48,109 nt of DNA from Spizellomyces punctatus DAOM BR117 (GCA_000182565.2 KQ257452.1); one strand, 5' to 3'; numbered from the stretch's first letter, positions 21,754 to 46,683 are shown. Program-made: numbers and translations. The notes: a model not told the origin generated them from the sequence alone.

Positions 21754-22153
21754 ATAATATGATATACCCGGCTTATAATATTCTATATAATAAGCCGTAT
21801 TGAAGTGTTTGCCCAATGCATTGGAGTGTTTCAAAGTGTTTCAAAGTGTTTCAAAGTGTTTCGAGTCTTCCAAGGTGTTTGTCCAAGTCCCGGACTATTG
21901 ATGAAGGGATGTGTGCATCTACGCCGAAAATTTTCTCTGACATACACGTAAAATTTTACGCATCTAATATTTCACGTGTCCAAACTTGACATTCGCTTCT
22001 TCTCAAGACTCCATGGTTCGTTTCCCCTTGGGCGGTTCGTTTCCCTTGGGCGGTTCGTTTGGTGATTTTACTCGAGCAAATTCTTGCTACTAGGTTCAAA
22101 CGCCACACTTTATGAAATCACTTTATCTTGCCACTAGGTTCAAATGCCACACT

Positions 22154-22552
22154 TTATGAAATCACTTTAGCTTGGGACTCCATCTCTCCACCTTCCTTTA
22201 CTGATGGTACTCGGGAGACCTTCAGTCTCAACACTTTTCGTTGTTTGTGGTAGATTGTGATAATCTCCATCACTTGGTCTTCTGTATATCCTGCCTCCAT
22301 TAGCCCCTGCTTGACGTCATCCACCAAAGCATTTAGCTTCTCCTCTACTAGTGATGCCACATACATATTTGAACCATCTTCGCCTATGATTGTCCTCACA
22401 TCCTTCTTAACCATTTTCCTTTCAATTGCCTCCTTTCTACGGCGATTCGTTGTTACGACTGCTTGGTGCATCTCATTGTCAACTGTGAGTTGGTAGAACC
22501 TCTTCATCTCATTTAGCTCTTCTTCACTTGCTCGCCTCATCATTTTCTCCAT
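22154..22552 (-). CDS. TIR-encoded 132-aa charged helical protein, copy 1
   Basis: Same as 45806-46204 except H/R at one codon; upstream TATCGATA x2 and TATAAAAG. Confidence 0.8.
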   Translation of the reverse strand: MEKMMRRASEEELNEMKRFYQLTVDNEMHQAVVTTNRRRKEAIERKMVKKDVRTIIGEDGSNMYVASLVEEKLNALVDDVKQGLMEAGYTEDQVMEIITIYHKQRKVLRLKVSRVPSVKEGGEMESQAKVIS

Positions 22553-22794
22553 TGTTAATTGCAGCTGTATTCGAATGTTGTATATGGAATCGTTTTTGAA
22601 AAGAAGGCTTCGAGCTGGGGAGGGGAGACCGGCGACCCTCTTTTATAAACGGAAAAGGAACCCTCCCATCTTATCGATATGATGGTTCAATACATGACCT
22701 CTCATCCTATCGATATAACATGTTCGATCTCTCATCGACAAAGTGGGATGCCATCTTTTGCTTACCTAAGCATTGTGACTCATGCAAATAAGTC

Positions 22795-22993
22795 GCAGTG
22801 AACCAGGTTTCCCTTGCTATCTGGGTAGCGAGGGTAAATGACCCCAATCTCAGTTTCCATGTATAACATACAAGTTGACTTCGGGGTCATTCACCCTCAA
22901 CCTACACCACCCAATAATCAACACAGGTAGCACGTGGTTATCTAGAGTACCTTTGGAGAGCCGAGCCACCTCACACCAGACATTGTTCACTGT
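22795..22993 (+). repeat. ~190-bp nested-palindrome repeat, copy 1
   Basis: GCAGTGAAC...GTTCACTG ends; inner gagggtaaatgacccc / ggggtcattcaccctc arms. Confidence 0.93.
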
Positions 22994-23048
22994 GTGAAAT
23001 TATTGTATAAATCATTCAAAGAGTCATATCAAGTATATACATCTTTTG

Positions 23049-23309
23049 TTATGAATCTATCTTCCGAGGTCTCCCCCTTAGTCTCTTTGGCGAACTTGTT
23101 CCTAATTTCTTGCGCGGTGCTTCCATTCTCGTTATCTGCAGAAACTTAGATGTATATTTGCATTCTTTTCCATCTAACATCCGGCGGATGGTGTGATAGC
23201 AAAGGTTCACCTTGGGTTGCAGTGCCGTTATCGTAGGGGCGGAATGTTCAACAAAGGAGCCATCCGGCTGAAGCAGTTTCACCGTGTAAATGTATTTCGA
23301 GGAAGGCAT
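23049..23309 (-). CDS. Small DNA-binding protein (HTH/NUMOD1-like core plus AT-hook)
   Basis: TITALQPKVNLCYHTIRRML helix pair; C-terminal RGRPRK AT-hook. Only the 3' half is duplicated in the right TIR. Confidence 0.6.
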   Translation of the reverse strand: MPSSKYIYTVKLLQPDGSFVEHSAPTITALQPKVNLCYHTIRRMLDGKECKYTSKFLQITRMEAPRKKLGTSSPKRLRGRPRKIDS

Positions 23310-23513
23310 ATGGAACTGAGTGCAATAATCCTTTACTAAATTTTAATAAACAAAAACCTTTATACTAACGCAATTCGATGCAAATATTCTGTACTTCGAT
23401 GCACAGCTGAAATTACGTCATCCTCTGCAATTTTCGATGCAAATCTTCTTGCATATAAGTCCGGAACGCGGACGCCTTATTTAATTTTAATTCCTTTCTG
23501 AATTAAGTTCAGA

Positions 23514-26462
23514 ATGGCTCAGCAATTTAGAATGGTAAAATGGCTCGGCATCACATGGTTAGGCAACCTCGAAATACCTGGTGTCCAAAAGGCTACTGGC
23601 GCTCAGGATAAAGTTCTCGCAGAACTGCCACCGGATAAGGTGCCCCTTTGGTGTCACCATCCTAAAAAAGGACGTCTATGGGGCACAGCCACGACGGAGC
23701 AACTTATAGAGATCACAGCCACCAATCATTACATATATGAGATTCTTGTATTCGCCCCTTATCGTCACCACAAAGTCTACTTTGACATTGACCCCCCTAA
23801 ACAGAAGAAAGGTGAAGAAGAGGGTACACCCATCTCCTTGAATGATGCTAAGAGTATTATTTTGCAGTATTTTCCGCATGCGCGCTTTCAGATTTCTGGT
23901 CATGAAGGTTCCTGGCACATCATCCTGTCTAACTACTATGCGGGAAATCTGGAATCTACCGCAGTCCTCCAACAGATCGCCAGGAAACACGGCTGGGATG
24001 TTAGTGTATACTACAGGAACAGCAATTTCAAGTGTATCAACCAAAGCAAACCCGGTCAGGCAGTGCAGGACTACATCGAGGGTAACACCGCGAGGAGCAA
24101 GCACTTTATCCTCCATGACTTTGACGAAGATGCAATCGACATCAGCACCATGACCTTTGACCTGGGCGAACTTCCTGCCGTCACATCTCTGAGGAAGAAA
24201 AATGCCGCAGGTCGAACTCAATCTCAGAGCATCGACATCCTCTCCATCCCCCAACTTGATTTACCCGTACCCGACAACTATGACCCTAAGAACAACCTTC
24301 AAAAACTCAGCATGTTGCCAAATCCTCCCAGGGGAAGTCCCGGAACCCTTGATCACCACACTTGCTGGAAAGTCATGTGTTGGTGTCGGCAAGTAGGGAT
24401 TGAATTCCCTAAGTTCTGGGCATGGAACAAGCAGAAAGACCTTTCTCCCGCTCGGATGCAAAAGTTCTACCAGGCTTGGAACTCTGCAACACGGTACAAC
24501 GTATCACCTAAGTTTATGGATACGCTGCTGGAACGCTTCTACCCGGACATCAACGTTTCAGTCGTGACGAAGAAGTTCCAGCGCCAGTTTGACATTCCAG
24601 AGTTGCACAAAGTTGATCATGACTATTTTGAAGATACCGATATTGCACCTCCCATATACATTCCCGATGGGGTAGGTAATCCTTTCGGTTGGAATGTAAT
24701 CTTGAATCAAGCGGCCAAAAAATTTACCCTGTTAGGCGGAGGTATGGGGAGGAACAAAACGGGGGCTGTTGCTAGATACATCAGGAGGTACGGTCAGAAT
24801 CTGCGAACCCTATGGATATGCCCCCGTATTACTTTAGCAGAAAACACTGTAGGCAGGCTTGCGGAGGAATGCTTAGATTTCCTGTGTTATCGTACATGCA
24901 ACACCTTGCAGAAGATCGAAGGCAAGATGGATGATTCTCAGAACGTCATCTGTAGCATTCAGTCTCTGCATTATCTCACCGAAATCTTCGACATCGTAGT
25001 CGTGGATGAACCGGAAACCGTCTTCACCTCATACTTCGGCAATGCCGAAACCCACCAAGCAAACCTCTGGAAGAACTGGGAACAGTTCATCGCCTTCTGC
25101 CAGATGGCAAAAAAGGTCATCTTCATGGATGCCTTCACGACGAATCTTTCCTTGAATGTTGTCAAGGGAATCATAGAGAACGGCTGGGAGAGGCAGGAAT
25201 ACGAAGTCCTCGATACTTCCTTGCCTCCCTTACCCCGCAAGTTCGTAGAGATCAAACTTTACGCGGATTGGATCTGCTCTGCTCTGCGTGATCTCAAGGA
25301 GGGCAAAAAATTGTATATTTTCACTCCTTTCAAACGAGGTAAGCAAGGTGTTGATGCCATCCTTAAAACCATCTTGAAAACATTTCCTGACTGGGAAGAA
25401 GGAACTGACATCTTCGCTTACTATGCCGAAAACGAAGCAGAAAAGAAAAGGCTGAGTAATGTCGAAACCATTTGGGAGCGGTGCCGAGTTGTCATCACAA
25501 ATGTGTCCATTTCGGTTGGTGTCAACTTCAACAAAAAGGATGTCTTCGACCGCATCTACGGATATTACTCACCCTTCATTCCTGTGCGAGACTTTATACA
25601 ATCCCTCCACCGCGTCCGTCACCCAAAGGATTCCACCATGTTGCTCCACCGGGACTTCAGGCGATCTTTTGGCATATGCAACAATCGGAGGCCAGCCGAA
25701 ATGCCTGATTGCCTCATCTTTCGTCAGATGGTGTCCGACTTAGAAATCGAATACAATGCTAACAATAACACTAAAAAATGGGAGACATTCAACATGTTCT
25801 GCCGCAAGGCTGGCATCGAGATACATCCCGTTTCTACTGAAGCCGGACTGGAGAACAATCAGGAATATCTGAAAAGTTTCCCCTCAAAGAAAGACCTTGC
25901 GTTCTACTGGGGCAACATAGCAGACATCGAGTCCCACCAGGCGGAACAGTATCTTTACATGAGTTATCGCAACGATGCCTCCCTGGAGCAATGCCTTCAG
26001 TTGGCAAAGTATTTTTTCAAGAAGCGGTTCTCCGAGGATACTGAGGATGACATTATGGCAGAAGTGTGGAGTGCTAAGCCCGACTTTATCGACAAGGTTA
26101 TAGAACTCAGATCGAATCCCTCGCATATCATCAACCGCGTGTTTACCGAAAACGGGGTGACACTGGGCGATGGTACTCCCTTACCTAACCAGATGCAGAC
26201 TTCGATACCGGTGGAGGAAATCAAAACTCAGTTCAAGTTCGACAGACGCAGGGAGGAAGGAACAGGCTTAGTGGCACAGATGATCAATGCATACTTTGGG
26301 ATGAAAGCCTATTACCAAAAAGACAGCAAGAGGAAGCAGAAGCAAAATGAGAACAAGAGGAAACGCGAGCGCCTACATGAAACCAGCCAGACATTCATTG
26401 ACTTAGCGGAAGTGTGTGTAGCGTATCATAACAAATGGTTATGCATGGAACCAGAGGGATGA
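23514..26462 (+). CDS. AEP primase(-polymerase) + PriCT-2 + UL9/origin-binding-like SF2 helicase fusion
   Basis: AEP motifs VYFDID, SWHII, DVSVY; W-rich PriCT-like WKV..FWAWNKQ; helicase GGMGRNKT, VVVDEPE, MDAF, SISVGVNF, QSLHRVR. Confidence 0.85.
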   Translation: MAQQFRMVKWLGITWLGNLEIPGVQKATGAQDKVLAELPPDKVPLWCHHPKKGRLWGTATTEQLIEITATNHYIYEILVFAPYRHHKVYFDIDPPKQKKGEEEGTPISLNDAKSIILQYFPHARFQISGHEGSWHIILSNYYAGNLESTAVLQQIARKHGWDVSVYYRNSNFKCINQSKPGQAVQDYIEGNTARSKHFILHDFDEDAIDISTMTFDLGELPAVTSLRKKNAAGRTQSQSIDILSIPQLDLPVPDNYDPKNNLQKLSMLPNPPRGSPGTLDHHTCWKVMCWCRQVGIEFPKFWAWNKQKDLSPARMQKFYQAWNSATRYNVSPKFMDTLLERFYPDINVSVVTKKFQRQFDIPELHKVDHDYFEDTDIAPPIYIPDGVGNPFGWNVILNQAAKKFTLLGGGMGRNKTGAVARYIRRYGQNLRTLWICPRITLAENTVGRLAEECLDFLCYRTCNTLQKIEGKMDDSQNVICSIQSLHYLTEIFDIVVVDEPETVFTSYFGNAETHQANLWKNWEQFIAFCQMAKKVIFMDAFTTNLSLNVVKGIIENGWERQEYEVLDTSLPPLPRKFVEIKLYADWICSALRDLKEGKKLYIFTPFKRGKQGVDAILKTILKTFPDWEEGTDIFAYYAENEAEKKRLSNVETIWERCRVVITNVSISVGVNFNKKDVFDRIYGYYSPFIPVRDFIQSLHRVRHPKDSTMLLHRDFRRSFGICNNRRPAEMPDCLIFRQMVSDLEIEYNANNNTKKWETFNMFCRKAGIEIHPVSTEAGLENNQEYLKSFPSKKDLAFYWGNIADIESHQAEQYLYMSYRNDASLEQCLQLAKYFFKKRFSEDTEDDIMAEVWSAKPDFIDKVIELRSNPSHIINRVFTENGVTLGDGTPLPNQMQTSIPVEEIKTQFKFDRRREEGTGLVAQMINAYFGMKAYYQKDSKRKQKQNENKRKRERLHETSQTFIDLAEVCVAYHNKWLCMEPEG

Positions 26463-27039: not shown

Positions 27040-29169
27040 ATGGACGCATTAACAACTCAGGAACAGCGTGTGAAGGCGACATGGTTCATCATCTGTCCAG
27101 ATGTGGACAATACATTCTTCGAAACGGCAAAAGCAATGCACCAAATCCTGACCGGAAAGTTGTATAAAGTACGTTACAAAACTTCAGATACATACCTGTA
27201 CGAACGCTGGAATATTGCAAGACGGACAGGATACAATTTTTCCACTGCGGGCAAAGTCATCATCGAGCTGGAGAAAACAGTATCTCAAGAGGACATGCCT
27301 ACAACACTTGGCACCATCTTGATGATAGAGAAGCTGTCAAAGGAAAACAGGCTACCATACGAGGAAGTCTGGCATAAAACCATCCAATTTTTCGGACGAC
27401 GACAAGATGTGGTGGCAGTCCAGATGCGCAACGCACTAGAAGAAAGCCAGCGCGGAGCATGTCAATTAGAAGAAGAGGAGTGCCAATCGGACGATCGTAT
27501 TGATTCAGCAGTTGTCATAGATTCAGCAATAGACCCTAGCGGTGATGCTTCTGTAGTAGAAGGAGGGGAGAATGGATGGAGTAGACGATTAAGAAAAAGA
27601 ACTAGAGACGCAATAACCGATTCCTCCTCGTCGGAATCCGAAGCAGATACAGCACCCGAAGAGCGCTTGCTAAAGCTGTCTTCGACTTACGAGCATGAAT
27701 ACCTAACTCCGCAGTGGTTATGGGAGAAGGTGTACCAATTAACAAATGGAATTGATCTCGATCCCTGTTGGCACGTAGAGTCAGTGGTGCGGGCAAAGAA
27801 AACATATGGGATGCAGCTAGATGGCTCCTTCATAAACGCTCTTCATTTAGAAAAATGGGACTCGGGCGAGTGGGTATGGTTGAACCCCCCAGGACATGCC
27901 CTTTTTCCTTCGCACCTCGGGCACCCAGACAACATAAATCTTCATGGACAGTTTTGGAATAAGGTGTTTCTTGAGATGTCGAAGGGACACATTGAGCGGA
28001 TCTGTGCCATCGTCCCTAATGTTGGATCTTCAACATGGCTAGCAACACTATTCAAAGAAGGCCTCATCTGCTTTCTTCACAAAAGAATAGATTGGGTGCT
28101 GTCATTAGCAGCTAAGGAGAGGAGGATGAAAAATCCGAAAACCGCCCGTGATCTCTTTCCTCGACTCATAGTTTACCTCGACAGCGACCCCACCTACCCA
28201 TACCAACAGAGATTCGCAGAGATCTTTAGTGATGTAGGATTCATTCCCGGCTATAATCTGAGGATGTGGAAACAACCGCAGCCGTTGAGGCACATCCGTT
28301 ATCTCAGTGTATGCTCTGGTATTGGTGTTGGCGAACTTGCTCTTCAACATGTCCTTCCCAGCGCGGAATGTGTAGGATATTTCGAAGTCGACAAAGACGC
28401 TTTAGCCGTGTATCAACATCACTTTCCTAATCATACGAACTTTGGGGATGTCACTAAAGCAGATGTTGGGAAATTGCCGGACTTTGACCTTCTTATAGGT
28501 GGCATCCCTTGTCAGCCGTTTTCGACAATGGTTTCTAATCATCACATCCGGAAGAACCATGATGATCCAAGGGCTGAACCTTTTAAACACTATGTTCATA
28601 TTCTCAAAGCGAAGAAGCCCCGTTGGTTTCTTATGGAGTGTGTGAGTTACATGGAAAAAGAAACGGAGCAACGGATTAGTCGAGAGATTGGAGTGTTGCC
28701 AGTAGCGATTGACAGCGGTAATTTTGCAGCACAATCAAGAAGACGGAATTATTGGGCAAACTGGTATATTCCCCAACCGATACGAAGTAAAGGTATTAAA
28801 CTGGAAGATATTGTTGAAAGATCTGTTCCACCGAATCCAGCAATCAAGAGGAAAGAATTGAAAGAATTCCACCCTCCGCTCGACACAGTCTCTTGTTTGA
28901 TACGCCCGATGGAAAACGGCAAAAAAACGGGGACAGTCTCGTTAAGAACCGATGGAAAATCAAACTGCTTGTTGACTACAGATTCTTATCAAAGCACATT
29001 AGTGATTAGTGGGGGTTTTCGGTTCTTGACGCACTTAGAACGTGAAAGGTTACAGGGGCTTCCGGATAATTATACGTCGATGGTTAGCTCTAACAAAGCA
29101 AGGCTGAGAATAGTTGGAAATAGTTTCAACTTGCCGACGATCGAGTACATTTTACAGCAGATGATGTGA
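27040..29169 (+). CDS. Fused DNA methyltransferase: phage Dam-type N6-adenine domain plus C5-cytosine domain
   Basis: YLTPQW..IDLDPC..W..WLNPPG (Dam-like; NPPY altered), then SVCSGIG, FEVD, GDV, GGIPCQPFS, MECV, QSRRR, ERLQGLP, GNS (C5 motifs I-X). Confidence 0.88.
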   Translation: MDALTTQEQRVKATWFIICPDVDNTFFETAKAMHQILTGKLYKVRYKTSDTYLYERWNIARRTGYNFSTAGKVIIELEKTVSQEDMPTTLGTILMIEKLSKENRLPYEEVWHKTIQFFGRRQDVVAVQMRNALEESQRGACQLEEEECQSDDRIDSAVVIDSAIDPSGDASVVEGGENGWSRRLRKRTRDAITDSSSSESEADTAPEERLLKLSSTYEHEYLTPQWLWEKVYQLTNGIDLDPCWHVESVVRAKKTYGMQLDGSFINALHLEKWDSGEWVWLNPPGHALFPSHLGHPDNINLHGQFWNKVFLEMSKGHIERICAIVPNVGSSTWLATLFKEGLICFLHKRIDWVLSLAAKERRMKNPKTARDLFPRLIVYLDSDPTYPYQQRFAEIFSDVGFIPGYNLRMWKQPQPLRHIRYLSVCSGIGVGELALQHVLPSAECVGYFEVDKDALAVYQHHFPNHTNFGDVTKADVGKLPDFDLLIGGIPCQPFSTMVSNHHIRKNHDDPRAEPFKHYVHILKAKKPRWFLMECVSYMEKETEQRISREIGVLPVAIDSGNFAAQSRRRNYWANWYIPQPIRSKGIKLEDIVERSVPPNPAIKRKELKEFHPPLDTVSCLIRPMENGKKTGTVSLRTDGKSNCLLTTDSYQSTLVISGGFRFLTHLERERLQGLPDNYTSMVSSNKARLRIVGNSFNLPTIEYILQQMM

Positions 29170-31494: not shown

Positions 31495-31595
31495 CTTATC
31501 GATAAGATCAGCTTTAAAAACATGCCGGTAAAGCACGCTCCACGTGCGTTAACAGTGCTCTTCAAGCACCCGGTACGGAGTGCCAATGCCAGCAA

Positions 31596-32300
31596 CTAAA
31601 AGTAATCATGAAACCCGCTGGAGTCACAGTAACGATACATTCCTTTAGCATCACTAGCATCTCTATTGATGTAGGCAAACGAATAAGGTTCTTTGGTGCA
31701 CTCGGTGAGAAATGTTAGAACTTCTTTATCATCTTTGTAGGCGGAAGCAAGTAACTTTGCTAAAAGTTTCATGTCTTCTGCATTGTTTTTAAACACCACC
31801 CACTCGGTGGTGCAGTTCTTCATTTTACGTGAAAGTTGTCCGGTTACACTCTGGATGGCTACAATATTTCCTATATTGAAATGCCTCCCTTTTGTATAGA
31901 GTTTCGATAACTCCTTGTTGAGTTCTTTACTTTGCGCAGAATCACCAGCGTCGTCAATGAATAATAGAAGTGACTTCTCAGGCGTTTTCTTCTGTTCTTC
32001 TACAATTTTAGCGATGGATGCATTGGAAACCTCGTCTGTAAAGTAGATATTTTTATGTTTTGTGGTTTCAGCCAGTACCTTCACAGAAGCATCGTATTCG
32101 ACTGTGTCGGACATGATAATGACTCGATCGTGTAATTTAGCATAGACATCCTCAATCAGACCGCAGACTAATGCACTTTTACCACTTTTCCTCGGAGCGA
32201 CAAGAGTTGTACATAGAGGCAGTGATGCCAGGTCACGTGGAACACGAGGATCTCTCTTCTTTTTCCCTACGGGAAAGATTGGGCGTGGTTTATAGGACAT
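31596..32300 (-). CDS. A32-like FtsK/HerA genome-packaging ATPase
   Basis: Walker A APRKSGKS, Walker B LLFIDD, GRHFNIGNIVAIQ. Confidence 0.92.
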   Translation of the reverse strand: MSYKPRPIFPVGKKKRDPRVPRDLASLPLCTTLVAPRKSGKSALVCGLIEDVYAKLHDRVIIMSDTVEYDASVKVLAETTKHKNIYFTDEVSNASIAKIVEEQKKTPEKSLLLFIDDAGDSAQSKELNKELSKLYTKGRHFNIGNIVAIQSVTGQLSRKMKNCTTEWVVFKNNAEDMKLLAKLLASAYKDDKEVLTFLTECTKEPYSFAYINRDASDAKGMYRYCDSSGFHDYF

Positions 32301-40100: not shown

Positions 40101-43100
40101 CATGGGAAAGTATGCTATTATATCTACTACAGCCGCTGCCGCCTTTCAAATAAACAACGCATCATTCGGATATACAGCAACAGCAGGTCAATGGGTAACA
40201 AATACCATTGCTGGAGACTACATCATTCGAGCCTCCGCTAGTAATTTGCGTATTGGTACAAATAATGCAACGGCTTCGAATTTGGATATTCTCTCATCTG
40301 GGAATGTTATTATCAATACGACAACTGATGCTACTTCCTCAACATCTGGCTCGTTCCAGGTGAAAGGTGGAGTTAGCATCGCTAAATCACTGTACGTTGG
40401 AGGGGATGTATACACAAATGGAGTGAAATTGGCTACTGAAAGTTCTCTAACAACATCCATTGCTACGAAGCAAAATGCCAGTCCTTTACTCGATGCAATC
40501 AGTGGTTTAACAACGACACCGAATTCCTTCGTCATGGGAACTGCTGGGGGCTTTACAGTATCACCTGTCTCTACAATTCTAGGGGGATTCCAACCTCTTC
40601 TTACTACATCGTCTGCATTGAATGTTAATTCTCTAACAACGAGTGGTGGAATATTTGTCCAAGGCACCTCAGATATAGTGTTTCGAGTAGATAATGTAGG
40701 CAATGGACTCTTGACAGGTGGCTTACTTGTTGAACATGATCTAAATGTTGAAGGACTGATCATTCAAAATGGAGTCGAAGTGGCTACGCAACAATGGAGT
40801 GTCGCTACAATGACCGGCATGACAAGTCCTCTTAGTCAATCCTTGACTTCGCTTCAAACACTTGTTCAGAATAACAAGGCCGCCGCAGATACAGCACTTG
40901 CTACTAAACAAAGTGCGTCTGCGTTACTCGATTCTATCAGCGGTTTAACGCCGGCGGCTAACACTTTCATCATGGGAACACCCACAGGGTTCTCAGTTGT
41001 TCCTACATCGAATATACTTTCCTCATATCAACCTCTTATTACCTCATCGACTGCGCTATCATTTAACAGTGCCACTGTTGGCGGGGGTATAACCATTCAA
41101 AATGGCGCAGCATCTACAACATTGTCCTTAGTAAATACTGGGAGTAATGTTACATGGGGCATGAGAGTTGCCGGAAGCACAGGAGACGGAACATTATCAG
41201 CAGGCGGATTCGGTCTAAATAGTTCTTATAACAATACAGGCTTTGTTCTGAGAGTTTCCAATACAGGCGTAACGCAGATACCAAACACAACCGATTCAAC
41301 TAGTGTGACAACAGGTGCTTTCCAGGTATCAGGTGGAGTCAGCATAGGAAAAACTCTAACCCTAGGAGCAGGTGGAGGAGGATTGCAGCCGGCTGCCATA
41401 GTCATCAATGCGCCTTCAAGTGCCACAGCGTCTACCGCCGTTCTGATTAGTAACAATGCTGCTTCGAGTAATTCTTGGGGTATATACCACGCTGCAACTA
41501 ATGGAACAGGTATACTTACCAATGGGAGCCTCGGGTTTTATAACTATGGAACTAGCGCCCATCAATTCATTCTCAAAGCCAATGGAACCATTGCCATCAC
41601 TTCGACTACAGACTCATCGTCGACTATAATGGGCGCATTGCAGGTATCAGGAGGTTTAGGTGTCGCTAAAATGCTGTACGTTGGTGGAGACATTTTCTCC
41701 AATAATCTCAAACTTGCAACCGAGAGTTATGTAGGGACAGCCATTGCTAATAAACAGGCATCAAGTCCACTATTATCGTCTATAAGCGGTCTTGCATTAT
41801 CAGCGAATTCATTTATTGTTGGGAGTTCTGCTACATCATTCTCGGTGAAAACTCCTGAAGAGGTGAAGACAATATTAGGCATTACCAATGTCGACATCTC
41901 AGGGAAGCAAAATGCAAGTCCTTTACTCGATTCCCTTGCATCGATGAGTCCAATGTCGAACATGTTTGTCATGGGAGATGATGTCCAAGGATTTACCCTT
42001 GTGAATGATATTTCCGTTCGAAGTATTTTAAACATTGTCGACTATGCCCCCAGCATATCAGCACTGCAAACATCGAAACAAGATGTTATAACATCTTCTA
42101 GTAATCTGTTGGCAAATACAATTCTTGCTAACGATACATCCGAGGCAACAACCGTATCAAGTGGCGCTCTACAGGTTAAAGGAGGAATAGGGGTTTCTAA
42201 AAGTATCTTCTCAGGTGGAAACATTACAGGAAAAGTTCTCATAGCCGCCTCTACAGGTGGATATTTCAAGTTGAGAAGTGACACTCCCTCTACGAAAGGT
42301 GACTACACTATCTCCTACAACAACTCCGGAGACGCCCTTCACGTCCACCTCGCCGGCTCGTCTGATAGCGTAGACCAACGTCGTTATGAATTCGGTCATT
42401 ATTCCAGTGATACCTTTGGAACATGGAATAGCCGATTCTCGGTTAACACCTACACCGGAGACCTCATCTCGTCCGGTAATCTAACTATCGGTTCGCCACT
42501 TAACGGGCTACGGGCTATTATTCTTAAAAACCTCGACTCTGGGAGCAATAGTTGTGCCATCCAATACTTCCAGAATGCAGCAGGTTCTGCTGTTATGTTT
42601 TTGAACGGAAACAACCGGAGTTCGGATGGAGGCGTTAACACAATGACATTGAGAAACGATATTGGAAATCTTCGGCTCCAAGCACAGACCGCTAAAGGAC
42701 TAACGATACAGGCAAATACCGGAAATGTCACAATTGATTCTACAACACCAGCATTGAGTTCTTCCACAGGAGCATTGGTCGTTTCAGGAGGTGTCGCGGT
42801 TGCTGCACATGTTGTTGCAGGAGGGAATCTGTATTCGAACGGTGCTGTCTATAGCAATGGTCAGGTTTGTGCTACTCAACCATGGGTTGCCAGTCAAACA
42901 TTTCTAAGAAATGTTCAAGTTATCAAACTTTTGACTAAAGACGTGTGGCAATCCAACAATGCCTCGAAGGTCTTCTATGTTTCAACACCTGGCAAGGTAC
43001 TTATGGAGTGGACGCTTAACCTCCATGGCACAGCAAACTCAAATGGTACATTGTCAATATTTCTCGGACAAAGCGCTGGGTCGATGCCTCTCGTGTACTC

Positions 43101-43269
43101 GAGCGACTTTAACTTTAATTCGGGAGTCAATCGTACAATCACAGCAGCCTTTGTTGTTACAGGGATGTCCGATAACATTGCTTACTTCACAAATTTTAGT
43201 ATCAGTCAGGCTGCTCCCGATAACACAACTGATGTTACCCTCATTAAAATCACTGAACTCGGACAATAG
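37162..43269 (+). CDS. Very long fibre/spike-like virion protein (2035 aa)
   Basis: Shaft-like beta repeats near the N-terminus; repeated STTTGALQVxGGxGV; KQxASPLLxxISGL x4; duplicated MFLNGNNRSSDGG..LRNDIGNLRLQAQTA block. Confidence 0.75.
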   Translation: MSGINSRHSTGLRTVDNTNLLSPYVTGEMVGFDVGAKIKGFDVGEFKHLSNENGKLKVNEVETTSECLPCTNEHGVVSIGLNVDNKRLEIDEESRLTTIDVSAHQPLVYSKEGHDIQLQFDDSSLSVEEEKLKVIPENYEFPMYRDDESRTVGIRVDETLSINENGLSVNFPPPPPLETLKKPLYRDNGIGVKLHKSLKVNSSDELETNSSQLFKAFGAIKTSSGADTLLDIGSSWLDFGFDSLTEMTNVLGEVDTTAIRLMVDSSIFSQAGSRLSLKSPGYEQIMYGNLTYGYSGSSSFTYSSTLQELRVPNVKLSGTLPAIGGGSYAVSKDYLSQFYQGSQTGAIAVSPEAAGRREIGCLVDNQTIRIVGNALTGGYIFQDFNGVSIRPGTTNDVVLSLKCEAGSCLQMVKADTIKDVLTCSNGIERVQNDLQLDLKVDANSGLAMVNRGTIRDTFTASQGVTRTGNDFRLSLTAQSPDLTLNNGVLSSNIAAGIGLQKNGAILSTNLRGINGVQVSGDLISCSISGSDTILRVGDALRGNYVGSTNSYGSIIVVGNTIQYNMIPPQFVSNSPNLIITGSYPLYNFTLIDPTPLSKQRDTDNTEQSDTAEVLKTDVPSGNTVILSGATPLSTVPFPAMVSPPLTVPMAVNSILPIVSTFPWGMIFGGSCKRKVQRDAEGQPILDGDGNPIYEPIDPVTFMPPLEPGSNVAIASDPIGGCTRLLFDMPSCYRGIKYEYPQQAINLSMLRDYDNDVIKPWVGSQITNLTSNNVTFGGNISGKVITGSRVQTTASVAGGSSVFISNSFDSTKSSWLGLDGSGLLGYASDAATWLGAQDKPIYIYRRTSSAVSLGLRVDTNGSCVVGGDLTVGASSVNGLRSLIVSNPSTGTNGCSILYLTASGGSGVMFLNGNNRSSDGGINAMTLRNDIGNLRLQAQTARGLTIQANTGIVTLDATNDASSTTTGALQIPGGLGVQGTVYMGKYAIISTTAAAAFQINNASFGYTATAGQWVTNTIAGDYIIRASASNLRIGTNNATASNLDILSSGNVIINTTTDATSSTSGSFQVKGGVSIAKSLYVGGDVYTNGVKLATESSLTTSIATKQNASPLLDAISGLTTTPNSFVMGTAGGFTVSPVSTILGGFQPLLTTSSALNVNSLTTSGGIFVQGTSDIVFRVDNVGNGLLTGGLLVEHDLNVEGLIIQNGVEVATQQWSVATMTGMTSPLSQSLTSLQTLVQNNKAAADTALATKQSASALLDSISGLTPAANTFIMGTPTGFSVVPTSNILSSYQPLITSSTALSFNSATVGGGITIQNGAASTTLSLVNTGSNVTWGMRVAGSTGDGTLSAGGFGLNSSYNNTGFVLRVSNTGVTQIPNTTDSTSVTTGAFQVSGGVSIGKTLTLGAGGGGLQPAAIVINAPSSATASTAVLISNNAASSNSWGIYHAATNGTGILTNGSLGFYNYGTSAHQFILKANGTIAITSTTDSSSTIMGALQVSGGLGVAKMLYVGGDIFSNNLKLATESYVGTAIANKQASSPLLSSISGLALSANSFIVGSSATSFSVKTPEEVKTILGITNVDISGKQNASPLLDSLASMSPMSNMFVMGDDVQGFTLVNDISVRSILNIVDYAPSISALQTSKQDVITSSSNLLANTILANDTSEATTVSSGALQVKGGIGVSKSIFSGGNITGKVLIAASTGGYFKLRSDTPSTKGDYTISYNNSGDALHVHLAGSSDSVDQRRYEFGHYSSDTFGTWNSRFSVNTYTGDLISSGNLTIGSPLNGLRAIILKNLDSGSNSCAIQYFQNAAGSAVMFLNGNNRSSDGGVNTMTLRNDIGNLRLQAQTAKGLTIQANTGNVTIDSTTPALSSSTGALVVSGGVAVAAHVVAGGNLYSNGAVYSNGQVCATQPWVASQTFLRNVQVIKLLTKDVWQSNNASKVFYVSTPGKVLMEWTLNLHGTANSNGTLSIFLGQSAGSMPLVYSSDFNFNSGVNRTITAAFVVTGMSDNIAYFTNFSISQAAPDNTTDVTLIKITELGQ

Positions 43270-43318: not shown

Positions 43319-43630
43319 ATGCGATGCGCGGATATTGAAGGTCATTCAGTATTGAACATCAAGGACGCCGTGAAGGGCGACATGTGTAACTTCTGGAGGT
43401 ACTGTCAAGGTATGATGACAGGAGATAAAAAACGTATCATATTGTTTCTTCCGAAAACAGACCAGAACGAACACATCTTCAAAGAGATTATGTCAATCGT
43501 CCACTTGAAGAAACTGGATGAAATCTGCTTTCGAAATTCCGGCTACTTAGCCATCTTGCAGGATTGCGTTCTCTTAGGACACAATCATAATGAAAGGCTC
43601 TTTGTTCTAGAAATGCGGATGGAAACGTGA
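43319..43630 (+). CDS. Hypothetical viral protein, 103 aa
   Basis: ATG-initiated ORF directly after the fibre gene; no motif recognised. Confidence 0.45.
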   Translation: MRCADIEGHSVLNIKDAVKGDMCNFWRYCQGMMTGDKKRIILFLPKTDQNEHIFKEIMSIVHLKKLDEICFRNSGYLAILQDCVLLGHNHNERLFVLEMRMET

Positions 43631-43839
43631 ACGCAGCTTCCCTTTTTTTCTCTATAAAAAGATGGGGATGCAGATGGAGAACTGTATCCCCATTGGGTCA
43701 TACAGTCCTTTCCTTTTCATGGCTTCTTTCGTTGGACTGACCACAAAAAGAAACGAAAAAGAAACCACACGCATCTGAAACACAGATGCCAACACAGCTT
43801 TTTGTGCAGCGATGCACGGGTCTATTATGTAACACTCGA

Positions 43840-44217
43840 CTAAGATAACAGTTTTATTCCCATTGACGCTGATAAGCCCTCACATGCTCCTAATAAAAGC
43901 TCTAAAAATGCCAGTAATTTAACATGGCTTTCAATTGAGTCGATGTCCTGCATTTCATCCTCAACCATCAACCTAAGTTGTACACAGGTGAACAAGCAAC
44001 AACTCCACTGTTCCTCCATATCTTCGAATGTTGGATCATAATGAGCACTTTTAAATCCTTCTCTGATGCTTCCAAGAATGGTCATGTACTTTGTAATGCT
44101 CTGTTGATCTCTAATTTCTTCGCATGCAAAACACACTGCTAGCCATGCCCACCGAGTCATGGTTCGAAGGTGTATGAATTTCGGGTTCGACTCGCTATCA
44201 CTCTTTTGACTGCTCAT
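43840..44217 (-). CDS. Hypothetical viral protein, 125 aa
   Basis: ATG ORF with upstream TATCGATA (44315) and TATATA (about 44268-44274). Confidence 0.6.
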   Translation of the reverse strand: MSSQKSDSESNPKFIHLRTMTRWAWLAVCFACEEIRDQQSITKYMTILGSIREGFKSAHYDPTFEDMEEQWSCCLFTCVQLRLMVEDEMQDIDSIESHVKLLAFLELLLGACEGLSASMGIKLLS

Positions 44218-44406
44218 GTTGTTGAAGAATGTTTTAGAATTAGCAAGGGGGCAAGCCCTCCGCGCTGGATATATAGAGGGTGTTCTTTTCCGATTGGGCG
44301 AAAAGTACTTAAATTATCGATACGACAGGGATTTTTAGTATGCGCCACAAAAATTTACAGGGTCTACAGAGGGTCGGCAATTCCCCCATGGGGAATGAAA
44401 GACCAC

Positions 44407-44573
44407 GCAGTGAACAATGTCTGGTGTGAGGTGGCTCGGCTCTCCAAAGGTACTCTAGATAACCACGTGCTACCTGTGTTGATTATTGGGTGGTGTAGGT
44501 TGAGGGTGAATGACCCCGAAGTGCATTAACATGTTATACATGAAAACTGAGATTGGGGTCATTTACCCTCGCT
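44407..44573 (-). repeat. ~190-bp repeat, copy 4 (one end missing)
   Basis: Nearly identical to copy 5 apart from a short patch beside the core. Confidence 0.9.
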
Positions 44574-44609
44574 CATTCAAGATCACCAGGTAGCCACATT
44601 CTACTTTTC

Positions 44610-45011
44610 TTAAGCCTGCCATCCTCCAATCCCATCCCAGCGGTACTCCAGACTACGTAAATCTACTCGATATGCTTGCCAGTCGGGATTCCCTAGCTGA
44701 CTGCATTCAGCTATCCACTCCATCAGAAAACTATGGACGCTGAACAACATGTCAACAACACCGATTTCCTCTCCAACTTCGTCAAGTTCTTCTCCATATT
44801 TTCTCACTTTTTCTTTGTTGTCAACAAAAGGAACCCTCATATAAGGACTCTTCTCTGGGTTTGTCACGATGAAATTAATGATGTCTAAGACAATCGCTAT
44901 GATTTGTCTTTCCTCATCCGAGTTAGCATTGTAGCCCATTGTAGGAATAAGAAGAGAGCCATCCGTAGGCGCGCTGAATGTGATATTGAAGAATTCCTTG
45001 AAACTCGTCAT
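44610..45011 (-). CDS. Hypothetical viral protein, 133 aa, ending WDGIGGWQA
   Basis: ATG ORF with upstream ATCGAT and TATAAAAG. Confidence 0.65.
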   Translation of the reverse strand: MTSFKEFFNITFSAPTDGSLLIPTMGYNANSDEERQIIAIVLDIINFIVTNPEKSPYMRVPFVDNKEKVRKYGEELDEVGEEIGVVDMLFSVHSFLMEWIAECSQLGNPDWQAYRVDLRSLEYRWDGIGGWQA

Positions 45012-45364
45012 ACTGTTTTGTGGTGTAAGTGTGTGGATTTGCTAGCGAGCTTGCCTCTTTTATATTCACAACTCATCCATCGATGGAACCTTCAGTATGA
45101 TGCCATGTAGATGAGGATGCACGCAGACACGTCGTTGTTCTACATAACCATGATGTACCTATCACACCATCCGCCGGATGTTAGATGGAAAAGAATGCAA
45201 ATATACATCTAAGTTTCTGCAGATAACGAGAATGGAAGCACCGCGCAAGAAATTAGGAACAAGTTCGCCAAAGAGACTAAGGGGGAGACCTCGGAAGATA
45301 GATTCATAACAAAAGATGTATATACTTGATATGACTCTTTGAATGATTTATACAATAATTTCAC

Positions 45365-45563
45365 GCAGTGAACAATGTCTGGTGTGAGGGGGTTCGGCTC
45401 TCCAAAGATACTCTAGATAACCACGTGCTACCTGTGTTGATTATTGGGTGGTGTAGGTTGAGGGTGAATGACCCCGAAGTCAACTTGTATGTTATACATG
45501 GAAACTGAGATTGGGGTCATTTACCCTCGCTACCCAGATAGCAAGGGAAACCTGGTTCACTGC
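45365..45563 (-). repeat. ~190-bp repeat, copy 5 (TIR mirror of copy 1)
   Basis: CGCAGTGAAC...GTTCACTGCG termini. Confidence 0.93.
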
Positions 45564-45805
45564 GACTTATTTGCATGAGTTACAATGCTTAGGTAAGCAA
45601 AAGATGGCATCCCACTTTGTCGATGAGAGATCGAACATGTTATATCGATAGGATGAGAGGTCATGTATTGAACCATCATATCGATAAGATGGGAGGGTTC
45701 CTTTTCCGTTTATAAAAGAGGGTCGCCGGTCTCCCCTCCCCAGCTCGAAGCCTTCTTTTCAAAAATGATTCCATATACAACATTCGAATACAGCTGCAAT
45801 TAACA

Positions 45806-46204
45806 ATGGAGAAAATGATGAGGCGAGCAAGTGAAGAAGAGCTAAATGAGATGAAGAGGTTCTACCAACTCACAGTTGACAATGAGATGCACCAAGCAGT
45901 CGTAACAACAAATCGCCGTAGAAAGGAGGCAATTGAAAGGAAAATGGTTAAGAAGGATGTGAGGACAATCATAGGCGAAGATGGTTCAAATATGTATGTG
46001 GCATCACTAGTAGAGGAGAAGCTAAATGCTTTGGTGGATGACGTCAAGCAGGGGCTAATGGAGGCAGGATATACAGAAGACCAAGTGATGGAGATTATCA
46101 CAATCTACCGCAAACAACGAAAAGTGTTGAGACTGAAGGTCTCCCGAGTACCATCAGTAAAGGAAGGTGGAGAGATGGAGTCCCAAGCTAAAGTGATTTC
46201 ATAA
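45806..46204 (+). CDS. TIR-encoded 132-aa protein, copy 2
   Basis: Mirror of 22154-22552. Confidence 0.8.
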   Translation: MEKMMRRASEEELNEMKRFYQLTVDNEMHQAVVTTNRRRKEAIERKMVKKDVRTIIGEDGSNMYVASLVEEKLNALVDDVKQGLMEAGYTEDQVMEIITIYRKQRKVLRLKVSRVPSVKEGGEMESQAKVIS

Positions 46205-46633
46205 AGTGTGGCATTTGAACCTAGTGGCAAGATAAAGTGATTTCATAAAGTGTGGCGTTTGAACCTAGTAGCAAGAATTTGCTCGAGTAAAATCACCAAA
46301 CGAACCGCCCAAGGGAAACGAACCGCCCAAGGGGAAACGAACCATGGAGTCTTGAGAAGAAGCGAATGTCAAGTTTGGACACGTGAAATATTAGATGCGT
46401 AAAATTTTACGTGTATGTCAGAGAAAATTTTCGGCGTAGATGCGCACATCCCTTCATCAATAGTCCCGGACTTGGACAAACACCTTGGAAGACTCGAAAC
46501 ACTTTGAAACACTTTGAAACACTTTGAAACACTCCAATGCATTGGGCAAACACTTCAATACGGCTTATTATATAGAATATTATAAGCCGGGTATATCATA
46601 TTATACACTGGGTATATCATATTATAAGCCGGC

Positions 46634-46683
46634 TGATACAGTGCATCAGATAAGCCATTCGGCTTATCTGATGCACTGTATCA
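46634..46683. other. Terminal hairpin: perfect 23-bp stem, 4-nt loop, TG...CA ends
   Basis: tgatacagtgcatcagataagcc ATTC ggcttatctgatgcactgtatca. Confidence 0.92.

What the first reader, a model, noticed from the sequence alone, without database searches (positions are those of the whole stretch)
21754..46683. Near-intact endogenous Polinton-like virus in a fungal genome
Seen: morphogenesis module (A32, mCP, MCP, fibre), replication and integration genes, open ORFs and ~99% identical 1.45-kb TIRs. Known: dsDNA viruses are very rare in fungi; related midsize elements have, as I recall, been noted in chytrid assemblies but not shown as virions. Inference: a recent, possibly inducible provirus or a virophage-like parasite of chytrid giant viruses.
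Basis: partly seen in the sequence, partly recalled or inferred. Interest (0 to 1): 0.85.

Follow-up and report, generated by a model that had tools for sequence, protein, structure and literature searches.

The report
Integrated polinton-like virus in a chytrid
This is a real, nearly complete 25-kb capsid-encoding DNA virus genome inserted in a chytrid fungus chromosome, but viruses of this group have already been described in this species, and this copy looks silent and slowly decaying.

Summary
A 24,851-bp element (21754-46604) is bounded by 1,446-nt inverted repeats with 10 mismatches. The refutation test failed to refute. The 417-aa ORF folds as a double jelly-roll major capsid protein (pLDDT 86; PBCV-1 Vp54 E 1.9e-19). 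The 239-aa ORF folds as a penton (Z 14.8 PBCV-1, 11.0 mavirus). It also encodes an A32 ATPase, an adenovirus-like fibre, a PrimPol/UL9-like helicase, an rve-chromodomain integrase and a C5 DNA methylase.

It is not new. Near-identical proteins are Spizellomyces punctatus DAOM BR117 genes (MCP 97%). One integrated polinton-like virus in that species, founding an "S. punctatus group", was published in 2021 (PMC7805220), as were Powellomyces "MELD viruses" (PMC8502044).

"Near-intact" needs caveats. Two N runs lie inside the element, one in the integrase core. One RNA-seq run puts almost no reads on the capsid and fibre genes. 25 of 30 listed transition differences from sibling copies are at CpG sites, the mark of methylation-driven decay. 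No evidence supports the virophage reading. Verdict: a silenced endogenous member of a known group; interest is low to moderate.

The parts
21754..23199 (.). Left terminal inverted repeat (1,446 nt). The outer ~450 nt are short tandem repeats. It holds a 132-aa ORF (22154-22552, -) and one hairpin repeat (22822-22913).
23514..26462 (+). Replicase, 982 aa. The N-terminal domain looks like an AEP primase-polymerase (inferred). The central part is a UL9-like superfamily-2 helicase (shown).
   Evidence: Pfam Herpes_ori_bp, 34.2 bits against a cut-off of 20. A profile of 21 homologues against PDB gave herpesvirus origin-binding protein at E 2.2e-25 and human PrimPol at E 0.032. D91, D93, S128, G129 and H135 are invariant.
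27040..29169 (+). DNA methyltransferase, 709 aa. Residues 415-708 are a C5-cytosine methylase with the PCQ, ECV, QxRxR and GN motifs. Residues ~220-385 are a second, phage Dam-like domain.
   Evidence: Pfam DNA_methylase 1e-33; TIGR00675 124 bits; HhaI 8e-13 and DNMT3B 4e-12; phrog_111 3.4e-10 on residues 220-385. Motifs were read against recalled consensus motifs.
29264..30265 (+). 333-aa ORF; candidate tyrosine recombinase, unconfirmed.
   Evidence: Atlas feature score 0.98 to Preplasmiviricota clusters, one of which carries Phage_integrase in 16% of members. The C-terminal R...GH...Y pattern is my own reading. No match in Pfam, PHROGs, NCBIfam or PDB.
30262..31548 (-). rve (retroviral-type) integrase with a C-terminal chromodomain, interrupted by the N run 31178-31320.
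   Evidence: rve_3 29.6 bits against a cut-off of 26.5, Chromo 49 bits; PFV integrase 7.7e-5, CDY/HP1 chromodomains 6e-8; stop codon next to the gap.
31596..32300 (-). A32-like genome-packaging ATPase, 234 aa, with Walker A (PRKSGKS) and Walker B (LLLFIDD).
   Evidence: Pfam Pox_A32 32.4 bits against a cut-off of 22.8; phrog_2666 terminase large subunit 7e-9. Motifs were read.
32342..33061 (+). Penton (minor capsid) protein, 239 aa, single jelly roll.
   Evidence: AF2 pLDDT 79.8, pTM 0.56. Foldseek: Sputnik penton 2.3e-8, mavirus penton 2.5e-7. VIA-align: Z 14.8 PBCV-1 penton, 11.0 mavirus, 10.8 Sputnik, about 9 adenovirus penton base. 68% identity to a protein named 'penton [Powellomyces chytrid fungus MELD virus 5]'.
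33089..33670 (+). 193-aa ORF, very basic and K/R/E-rich; candidate DNA-condensing core protein (inferred from composition only). Its 3' part is hidden by the N run 33565-33664.
   Evidence: no family match.
33743..34996 (+). Major capsid protein, 417 aa, double jelly roll.
   Evidence: AF2 on a 36-sequence alignment: pLDDT 86.2, pTM 0.84. Foldseek PDB: PBCV-1 Vp54 1.9e-19 (TM 0.61), Sputnik 7.8e-16, mavirus 4.5e-13. BFVD top hit 2.6e-25. 53 homologues at E<=1e-3.
35598..37064 (+). 488-aa proline-rich ORF with basic NLS-like stretches; function unknown (a virion or core accessory protein is a guess).
   Evidence: 97% identity to SPPG_09539, which lies on the same contig as the sibling MCP gene SPPG_08453.
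37162..43269 (+). Fibre protein, 2,035 aa. The N-terminus has adenovirus-fibre-like repeats, followed by long repetitive Ser/Thr/Gly-rich segments.
   Evidence: Pfam Av_adeno_fibre 24.7 bits against a cut-off of 22.7, residues 100-134; internal 199-nt repeat at 80% identity; no PDB sequence match.
43319..45011 (.). Three small ORFs without any family match: 43319-43630 (+), 43840-44217 (-) and 44610-45011 (-).
45159..46604 (.). Right terminal inverted repeat.
46605..46683 (.). Extra right-end sequence: one more copy of the 21-nt terminal unit plus a perfect palindrome (46634-46683). ChIP read depth here is at single-copy level.
   Evidence: Depth is 23 at 46609 and 30 at 46633, against 65-78 inside the repeat.
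35123..35214 (.). One of five copies of a ~130-nt hairpin-forming repeat. The others are at 22822, 26514, 44494 and 45452. Each lies just 3' of a gene end; candidate transcript 3'-end signals (inferred).
   Evidence: RNA fold z-scores -7.8, -1.5, -3.5, -6.8.

Best explanation
The element is an integrated genome of a polinton-like virus (PLV) of the chytrid 'S. punctatus group'. The same group is called MELD viruses of Spizellomycetales and falls in the class Aquintoviricetes in current usage. The host genome is most likely Spizellomyces punctatus.

Shown:
- It encodes a full icosahedral-capsid kit: a double jelly-roll MCP, a penton, an A32 packaging ATPase and a vertex fibre with adenovirus-like repeats.
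- It encodes a primase/UL9-like helicase replicase, not a protein-primed polymerase.
- It encodes a retroviral-type integrase with a chromodomain, and a C5 DNA methylase.
- It is bounded by long, nearly identical TIRs.

Inferred life cycle:
- The virion delivers linear dsDNA to the nucleus.
- The rve integrase inserts it, steered by its HP1/CDY-like chromodomain towards methyl-lysine-marked chromatin.
- Host RNA polymerase II transcribes it.
- The replicase copies it from origins in the repeat-rich ends.
- The ATPase packs it into MCP/penton capsids.

This particular copy is one of several near-identical copies in the genome. It is transcriptionally near-silent in the one RNA data set laid. 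Since insertion it has been accumulating CpG-to-TpG changes, as expected for a 5mC-methylated repeat. It is best read as a young but silenced and slowly decaying endogenous copy, not as a proven active provirus.
For: - TIRs: 1,446 nt, 10 mismatches.
- MCP and penton folds.
- ATPase, helicase, methylase, fibre, integrase and chromodomain by Pfam above the curated cut-offs, by NCBIfam and by PDB sequence or profile searches.
- No PolB or protease domain in any of the 15 ORFs scanned.
- Host genes in the left flank.
- Homologues: 21 penton relatives; all 12 that name an organism are chytrids or 'Powellomyces chytrid fungus MELD virus 2/5'. The MCP is 97% identical to SPPG_02195 and SPPG_08453 and 95% to SPPG_07203. 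The window's own replicase and 488-aa protein sit on a 1,895,877-nt contig, the same length as the contig of SPPG_02195.
- Multi-copy state: in ChIP run X17, 247 variant places by the run summary over 14.4 kb, many with the other letter in the majority, e.g. 49 of 53 reads at 40375.
- Silence: RNA run X15 laid 58 reads of 26.4 million sampled. The 27 element bins have depth 0-0.38, against 3.8 in the last host bin.
- Decay signature: 25 of 30 listed transition differences are at CpG or TpG/CpA sites. At 17 of these the window has TpG/CpA where the other reads have CpG. 5 of the 10 TIR mismatches are of the same kind.
- Published passages read: 5mC is confined to transposons in Spizellomyces (PMC12695648). 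One integrated PLV in S. punctatus founds a group of 27, whose other members come from lake metagenomes and viromes (PMC7805220 and its preprint). Six Powellomyces MELD virus genomes carry adenovirus-like fibres and varied replicases, including SF2 helicase, YRec and Dcm (PMC8502044).
Against: - Intactness cannot be fully judged. Two N runs lie inside the element, and a stop codon sits beside the integrase gap. With several 95-99% identical copies and three gaps, the scaffolded copy could be partly chimeric.
- The left host junction rests on only 238 nt before another gap.
- No clear target-site duplication, which rve integration normally leaves.
- RNA evidence is one run, about 6% of it sampled, with conditions unknown to me. 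Two of the three host flank bins were equally empty.
- ChIP depth is not a copy-number measure; one host bin is as deep as the element.
- Only 40 of 261 variant rows were shown, so the CpG count rests on a selected subset.
- The AEP primase domain (E 0.032) and the tyrosine recombinase are weakly supported or unsupported.
Confidence: 0.8

Rival explanations
1. This copy is a latent, replication-competent provirus. Stress, demethylation or a particular life stage could induce it to make infectious virions.
For: - Every ORF that can be read in full is open, and coding density is 83%.
- The TIRs are 99.3% identical.
- Catalytic motifs of the ATPase, the methylase and the visible part of the integrase are present.
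- 15 of the 33 listed coding differences between copies are synonymous, more than neutral decay alone would give.
- In other chytrid assemblies, relatives sit on contigs of about genome size, 21.6-25.3 kb.
- The preprint says its viromes came from 0.2-um-filtered, DNase-treated lake samples. I did not see which members of the S. punctatus group came from them.
Against: - Near-zero RNA on the MCP and fibre genes in run X15.
- At 17 listed sites this copy has TpG/CpA where the other reads have CpG, and several of these changes are nonsynonymous.
- The integrase cannot be shown to be whole, and a stop codon lies beside the gap.
- The left end lacks the 79-nt terminal piece present at the right end.
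- No pile of molecule ends at 46604 or 46683 among the rows listed for the ChIP runs; 36 rows were not shown.
Confidence: 0.15
2. It is a virophage-like satellite. It stays silent in the chytrid genome and is expressed and replicated only in the factory of a co-infecting giant virus, as with mavirus or the PLV Gezel-14T.
For: - Some PLVs have a virophage-like lifestyle; the 2026 bioRxiv framework paper names Gezel (PgVV).
- Giant viruses (Mycodnaviridae) are now described in zoosporic fungi (PMC13533422).
- Silence in axenic culture is what such an element would show.
- Strong hairpin repeats lie 3' of genes. They recall the hairpin 3'-end rule of mimivirus transcripts; that rule is recalled, not checked.
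- Morphogenesis genes share T-rich tracts close to the ATG.
Against: - No giant-virus genes in the window.
- The main text of PMC13533422 has no occurrence of 'Spizellomyces' or 'virophage'.
- The integrase carries a chromatin-reading chromodomain.
- Several non-structural genes have TATA-box-like TATAWAAGAGG motifs 43-90 nt upstream, which suits nuclear Pol II. The count alone is not significant: 12 of 100 shuffles reach 4.
- The MCP matches chlorovirus-type MCPs better than Sputnik or mavirus MCPs.
- No adenain-type protease was found in any of the ORFs scanned. The introduction of PMC7805220 lists that protease as a gene of virophages.
Confidence: 0.07
3. It is an assembly artefact: a free or episomal viral genome, or a collage of several copies, scaffolded into a host contig.
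For: - Three N runs: one 238 nt left of the element and two inside it.
- Several 95-99% identical copies exist that could be confused.
- Structural variants in the TIR are seen in reads, such as a 70-nt tandem duplication.
Against: - The right junction, 1.5 kb of flank and 12.9 kb of element lie in one gap-free stretch.
- ChIP reads cover that stretch without a break. Depth falls from 65-78 inside the TIR to 23-30 just outside and about 20 in the flank.
- The published S. punctatus element was likewise described as lying in the middle of a large contig.
Confidence: 0.04

Closest known systems
Integrated PLV of Spizellomyces punctatus and the 'S. punctatus (SP) group' of polinton-like viruses (Bellas & Sommaruga 2021, PMC7805220; passages read)
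   Same: - Most likely the same host species.
- The same MCP family: the window's MCP is 97% identical to S. punctatus proteins.
- Integrated in a large contig, carries TIRs and encodes a DNA methyltransferase.
   Different: - I could not see which locus was published, because the supplements are closed. The genome holds at least four MCP copies counting this one, plus a second lineage with a penton only 77% identical.
- 52% of group members carry a chitinase. None was found among the ORFs scanned here.
Powellomyces chytrid fungus MELD viruses 1-6 (Starrett et al. 2021, PMC8502044; passages read)
   Same: - Penton 68% identical to MELD virus 5 and 58% to MELD virus 2.
- Adenovirus-like vertex fibre.
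- Replicases other than PolB, including SF2 helicase, YRec and Dcm.
   Different: - Those genomes were assembled from one sequencing data set as stand-alone genomes. This one is seen joined to host DNA.
- Different host genus.
Polintons/Mavericks proper (Polintoviricetes, adintoviruses)
   Same: Size, TIRs, an rve integrase with a chromodomain, and the DJR MCP + penton + A32 ATPase module.
   Different: - No protein-primed PolB and no adenain-type protease were detected in any scanned ORF.
- No 6-bp target-site duplication was seen; that Polinton feature is recalled.
- The MCP has no sequence match to known families.
Virophages (mavirus, Sputnik)
   Same: The penton and MCP folds match the solved mavirus and Sputnik proteins. 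Both integrate by an rve integrase, as mavirus does (recalled).
   Different: - No protease was found.
- The replicase is different.
- No known helper virus.
- The MCP is structurally closer to chlorovirus Vp54 than to virophage MCPs.

Membership tests
Polinton-like viruses (PLV; Aquintoviricetes sensu lato) | Double jelly-roll major capsid protein | tested here: met
   AF2 pLDDT 86.2, pTM 0.84; PBCV-1 Vp54 E 1.9e-19, TM 0.61
Polinton-like viruses (PLV; Aquintoviricetes sensu lato) | Single jelly-roll penton (minor capsid) protein | tested here: met
   Z 14.8 (PBCV-1 penton), 11.0 (mavirus), 10.8 (Sputnik); the top 27 rows are all penton proteins. Foldseek 2.3e-8.
Polinton-like viruses (PLV; Aquintoviricetes sensu lato) | A32/FtsK-like genome-packaging ATPase | tested here: met
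   Pfam Pox_A32 32.4 bits against a cut-off of 22.8
Polinton-like viruses (PLV; Aquintoviricetes sensu lato) | Usually no capsid-maturation cysteine protease and rarely pPolB (as stated in the introduction of PMC7805220) | tested here: inconclusive
   No such domain in 15 ORFs by Pfam, PHROGs or NCBIfam. Remote homologues, and anything in the two N runs, could have been missed.
S. punctatus group / chytrid MELD viruses | MCP and penton in the same sequence cluster as the named chytrid elements | tested here: met
   MCP 97% identical to SPPG_02195 and SPPG_08453. Penton 68% identical to the 'Powellomyces chytrid fungus MELD virus 5' penton. MCP clade with SH-aLRT 100 in a quick tree of 37 rows.
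Polinton/Maverick sensu stricto | Protein-primed family-B DNA polymerase | tested here: not met
   No PolB domain was found. The replicase is a PrimPol-like/UL9-like helicase.
Polinton/Maverick sensu stricto | Retroviral-type (rve) integrase | tested here: met
   rve_3 29.6 bits against a cut-off of 26.5; PFV integrase 7.7e-5. The first catalytic Asp lies in the N run and was not seen.
Virophages (Virophaviricetes) | Replication depends on a co-infecting giant virus | not testable with these tools
   No helper is known for this host. PMC13533422 does not mention Spizellomyces in its main text.
Virophages (Virophaviricetes) | Adenain-like cysteine protease among the core genes (stated for virophages in the introduction of PMC7805220) | tested here: inconclusive
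   None found by the family scans
Tyrosine recombinase (for ORF 29264-30265) | Match to the Phage_integrase catalytic domain with the R-K-H-R-H-Y residues | tested here: inconclusive
   No Pfam, PHROGs, NCBIfam or PDB match. The only support is an Atlas lead and a C-terminal pattern read by eye.

The most novel reading that the evidence does not exclude
The family, possibly through a less mutated sibling copy and not this locus, is a still-active dsDNA virus of a genetically tractable chytrid. Relief of 5mC or heterochromatin silencing would make it form adenovirus-like fibred virions. Its linear genome, which has no protein-primed polymerase, would be completed at the ends through the repeat-rich termini and a terminal palindrome like the one kept at the right end of this copy (46634-46683). 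That would give the first isolable capsid-forming dsDNA virus of fungi of this size class, and a natural integrating vector for chytrids.
Probability: 0.12. Interest if true: 0.8.

Novelty: already known. Interest (0 to 1): 0.3.

Why it matters
Capsid-forming dsDNA viruses of fungi are still known almost only from sequence. Chytrid PLVs are among the few candidates, and Spizellomyces punctatus can be transformed in the laboratory (Medina et al. 2020, seen only as a reference), so it is a practical place to look for virions.

This window adds detail, not a new kind:
- a full gene map of one copy;
- evidence that the family is multi-copy, with two lineages in one genome;
- evidence that this copy is silent and bears a CpG-deamination signature;
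- an asymmetric terminal palindrome;
- a hairpin repeat placed 3' of genes.

These points tell an experimenter which hypotheses to test (silencing by 5mC or heterochromatin; end replication) and warn against picking this locus as the reference 'intact' genome without closing its gaps.

Tried and rejected
Copy number, empty sites and the other copies' ends could therefore not be examined directly.
- Related loci: a scan of viral contigs with a 6-sequence MCP alignment found no relative. The 36-sequence alignment was too divergent to search with. A scan of metagenome contigs with the penton alignment gave a single 1.4-kb contig, L001, of no use for synteny.
- The MCP has no PDB sequence match of value, and the fibre has none. 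The 488-aa ORF has no Atlas relative (best score 0.77).
- Tyrosine recombinase: only two homologues were found, and their profile hit nothing in PDB. I keep it as a lead only.
- Target-site duplication: k-mer comparison of the two flanks gave nothing longer than 4 nt, and only 'ACA' directly abuts both ends.
- Promoter motifs: TATAWAAGAGG has 4 hits, all upstream of ORFs on the right strand, but 12 of 100 shuffles reach 4 hits. TTTYCCTT is enriched in the window as a whole (17 hits against 5.0 expected), but only 2 of the 17 lie upstream of morphogenesis genes. Neither establishes a promoter class.
- No tRNA genes and no Rfam family in the window.
- CpG observed/expected is 0.82 in the element against 0.88 in the left flank, so there is no bulk CpG depletion.
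- The look-up of sequencing runs listed no RNA holder. Eight small contig runs (X1-X8) held 27-45% of the words.
- Complex prediction (penton x3 with fibre residues 1-60) never ran, because the queue was full at every attempt. Docking of the fibre on the penton is therefore inference only.
- PMC11426020 (a review of the polinton-like supergroup) is not held. Taxon names such as Aquintoviricetes are taken from the 2026 bioRxiv paper.
- Rejected reading: Polinton sensu stricto, because no PolB was found.
- Rejected reading: bacterial or phage contamination. The flanks hold eukaryotic genes, and the best homologues of all element genes are in chytrids.

Full report

Yes. The repeat finder reports inverted arms at 21754-23199 and 45159-46604, 1,446 nt long and 99% complementary. 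A local alignment gives the same bounds, with no gaps and 10 mismatches. The element from tip to tip of the inverted repeat is 24,851 bp. It has GC 0.44 against 0.48 in the left flank, and about 83% of it lies in long ORFs.

Three qualifications apply.

- The window contains N runs at 21416-21515, 31178-31320 and 33565-33664. The second hides the first half of the integrase catalytic core. The third hides the end of ORF 33089-33670. A stop codon lies one codon before the integrase gap in the frame of the N-terminal piece.
That stretch holds one more copy of a 21-nt terminal unit (TRF: 2.7 copies at 46577-46632). It also holds a perfect palindrome at 46634-46683 that the left end lacks.
- I found no convincing target-site duplication.

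**2. The stated refutation test**

The finding was to be refuted if 33743-34996 and 32342-33061 lack jelly-roll folds. They do not lack them.

The 417-aa protein has no Pfam, PHROGs or PDB sequence match. It does have 53 homologues at E<=1e-3 in the 1.84-billion-protein library. AlphaFold2 on a 36-sequence alignment gives pLDDT 86.2 and pTM 0.84. Foldseek against PDB returns double jelly-roll major capsid proteins:
- PBCV-1 Vp54: E 1.9e-19, TM 0.61;
- Singapore grouper iridovirus: 1.0e-17;
- Sputnik: 7.8e-16;
- mavirus: 4.5e-13.

BFVD gives the same kind of hits, with a top E-value of 2.6e-25.

The 239-aa protein, modelled on 18 sequences, has pLDDT 79.8 and pTM 0.56. By Foldseek it matches the Sputnik penton (2.3e-8), the mavirus penton (2.5e-7) and adenovirus penton base. 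By VIA-align, the top 27 rows are all penton proteins: Z 14.8 for PBCV-1, 11.0 for mavirus, 10.8 for Sputnik and about 9 for adenoviruses.

**3. The rest of the gene set**

- **Packaging ATPase (31596-32300, -).** Pox_A32 above the Pfam cut-off, with Walker A and B motifs readable.
- **Fibre (37162-43269, +; 2,035 aa).** The only family match is the avian adenovirus fibre N-terminal model, 24.7 bits against a cut-off of 22.7, on residues 100-134. The surrounding sequence shows repeats of the adenovirus shaft kind; that is my reading.
- **Replicase (23514-26462, +; 982 aa).** Pfam Herpes_ori_bp at 34.2 bits. A profile of 21 homologues hits herpesvirus origin-binding proteins at 2.2e-25 on positions 375-534, and human PrimPol only weakly, at 0.032, on positions 147-182. 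The invariant residues D91, D93, S128, G129 and H135 fit AEP primase motifs I and II; the motifs are recalled. The helicase is therefore shown and the primase domain is inferred.
- **Methylase (27040-29169, +).** A C5 methylase (Pfam 1e-33; TIGR00675 124 bits; HhaI and DNMT3 in PDB). A second, Dam-like domain is suggested by phrog_111 at 3.4e-10.
- **Integrase (30262-31548, -).** rve_3 above the cut-off plus a chromodomain. PFV integrase scores 7.7e-5 and CDY/HP1 chromodomains 6e-8.
- **ORF 29264-30265.** It may be a tyrosine recombinase (Atlas lead; C-terminal pattern). No library or PDB search confirms this.
- **ORF 33089-33670.** Extremely basic.
- **ORF 35598-37064.** Proline-rich with NLS-like stretches.
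- **Not found.** No PolB and no adenain-type protease in any ORF scanned.

**4. Where it sits and who its relatives are**

The left flank encodes ordinary eukaryotic genes: homeobox, HMG box, ribosomal protein P0 and a GH5 C-terminal domain.

The penton has 21 relatives at E<=1e-3. All 12 that name an organism are Chytridiomycetes (Spizellomyces, Powellomyces, Gaertneriomyces, Geranomyces, Thoreauomyces, Phlyctochytrium) or 'Powellomyces chytrid fungus MELD virus 2/5', where the protein is already named 'penton' (taxonomy).

The MCP is 97% identical to SPPG_02195 and SPPG_08453, and 95% to SPPG_07203, all of Spizellomyces punctatus DAOM BR117. The window's own replicase and 488-aa protein are on record on a contig of 1,895,877 nt, the length of the contig that carries SPPG_02195. 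The host is therefore most likely S. punctatus. That genome holds at least three further MCP copies. It also holds a second lineage whose penton is only 77% identical.

A sibling copy on a 321,667-nt contig carries its MCP (SPPG_08453), its 488-aa ORF (SPPG_09539, 97% identical) and its 333-aa ORF (SPPG_08458, 99% identical).

A quick tree of 37 MCPs puts the window, two S. punctatus paralogues, Thoreauomyces and three unnamed sequences in one clade with SH-aLRT 100. The careful tree search did not finish.

**5. Reads**

One call laid four runs on 33670-48109 at 98% likeness or better.

*RNA run X15.* 58 of the 26.4 million records sampled were laid, from about 6% of the run. The 27 element bins have depth 0-0.38. 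The last host bin has depth 3.8. The other two host bins are about as empty as the element, so this is modest evidence of silence under one condition that I do not know.

*ChIP runs X16 and X17.* Coverage is continuous across the right junction. Depth in X17 is 65-78 at sites inside the TIR, 23-30 at 46609 and 46633, and about 20 in the next kilobase. The multi-copy sequence therefore ends at about 46604, and the extra 79 nt are locus-specific. ChIP depth is not a copy number; the last host bin is as deep as the element.

*Variants in X17.* There are 247 variant places by the run summary, of which 204 are transitions. 40 rows are listed and 221 are not shown. At many places the non-window letter is in the majority, for example 49 of 53 reads at 40375. 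Together with the paralogous proteins, this shows several near-identical copies. No pile of molecule ends at the TIR tip is among the listed rows; 36 rows were not shown.

**6. A decay signature**

Among the 30 listed transition differences, 25 are at CpG or TpG/CpA sites. The window keeps CpG at 8 of the 9 sites where it has C or G. At 17 of the 21 sites where the window has T or A, the other reads restore a CpG. Because the other reads are often the majority, many of these are derived changes of this very copy.

5 of the 10 TIR mismatches are of the same type. Of the 33 listed coding differences, 15 are synonymous and 18 are not. That suggests a mix of divergence under constraint and later decay.

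A published passage states that in Spizellomyces 5mC is confined to transposons (PMC12695648). The simplest reading is that this copy has been methylated and silenced since insertion and is eroding by deamination. No stop codon is yet visible in the readable ORFs. The count rests on the 40 best-supported rows only.

**7. Most likely mechanism**

Shown: a complete capsid, packaging and fibre module; a helicase-type replicase; an rve-chromodomain integrase; a methylase; long TIRs with tandem-repeat-rich tips.

Inferred:
- A fibred icosahedral virion.
- Nuclear entry, and integration steered by the chromodomain to methyl-lysine chromatin.
- Pol II transcription. TATA-like motifs lie 43-90 nt upstream of four ORFs, although the count is not significant.
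- Replication primed by the AEP domain from the repeat-rich ends.
- Transcript 3' ends at a ~130-nt hairpin repeat found five times just beyond gene ends.

**8. Comparison with what is known, and novelty**

Bellas & Sommaruga (PMC7805220 and its 2019 preprint; passages read) reported one PLV integrated in the middle of a large S. punctatus contig. They named an 'S. punctatus group' of 27 after it. The other members came from metagenomes and viromes, and 52% carry a chitinase.

Starrett et al. (PMC8502044; passages read) assembled six Powellomyces MELD virus genomes. These have adenovirus-like fibres and varied replicases, including SF2 helicase, YRec and Dcm.

A 2026 preprint places chytrid A32 ATPases among the Aquintoviruses.

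My searches were: 'polinton-like' + Spizellomyces, Spizellomyces + virophage, Spizellomyces + polinton, 'MELD virus' / chytrid, and zoosporic fungi + Nucleocytoviricota. They found no report of virions, induction or expression for chytrid PLVs.

The thing itself is therefore already known. The supplements that would say whether this exact locus was the published one were closed.

**9. Verdict**

It is a member of a published group in a species where it was already reported. I did not file it under Polintons proper (no PolB) or virophages (no helper, no protease found, nuclear-type features). The 'inducible provirus' and 'virophage' readings remain open but are unsupported, and the first is weakened by the RNA and CpG evidence. 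Interest 0.3.

Noticed in passing
window 1688-3672: A Homeobox_KN ORF (1688-2605, -) and an HMG-box ORF (2707-3672, +) lie head to head about 100 nt apart in the host flank. The pairing resembles fungal mating-type loci.
   Followed up: no
window 22822-22913, 26514-26605, 35123-35214, 44494-44585, 45452-45543: A ~130-nt repeat family forms a strong hairpin with ~18-bp arms (RNA fold z down to -7.8). It occurs only inside the element, each copy just beyond the 3' end of a gene. It may be a terminator or 3'-end signal, or a small nested mobile element.
   Followed up: partly
window 46605-46683: The right end carries one more 21-nt terminal unit and a perfect palindrome (23-nt arms, 4-nt loop) that the left end lacks. 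Read depth there is at single-copy level. It could be a remnant of a fuller terminus or of an earlier insertion.
   Followed up: partly
window 21825-22174 and 46184-46632: The outer ~450 nt of each TIR are made of short tandem repeats: 10 nt x5.7, 18 nt x2.5 and 44 nt x2.1. Reads from other copies show an extra 70-nt tandem duplication at 46484-46553.
   Followed up: partly
window 47233, 47710, 47968, 48048: In the host flank, ChIP reads show alternative letters at about 50%. This could reflect heterozygosity or a duplicated flank in the sequenced culture.
   Followed up: no
window 27040-29169: The methylase looks like a fusion of a Dam-like domain (motif NPPG, not NPPY/F/W; my reading against recalled motifs) and a complete C5 methylase. 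The host uses both 6mA and 5mC (PMC12695648).
   Followed up: partly
protein P0079 (SPPG_07203), not in the window: One sibling MCP copy is annotated as a 601-aa fusion with an AP2/ERF-domain part. This is either a gene-model artefact or a broken copy.
   Followed up: no
window 46692-47477: The ORF directly right of the element (about 260 aa from its ATG) has no Pfam match. The right flank has a low CpG observed/expected ratio, 0.54. It may itself be a repeat or an old mobile element.
   Followed up: no
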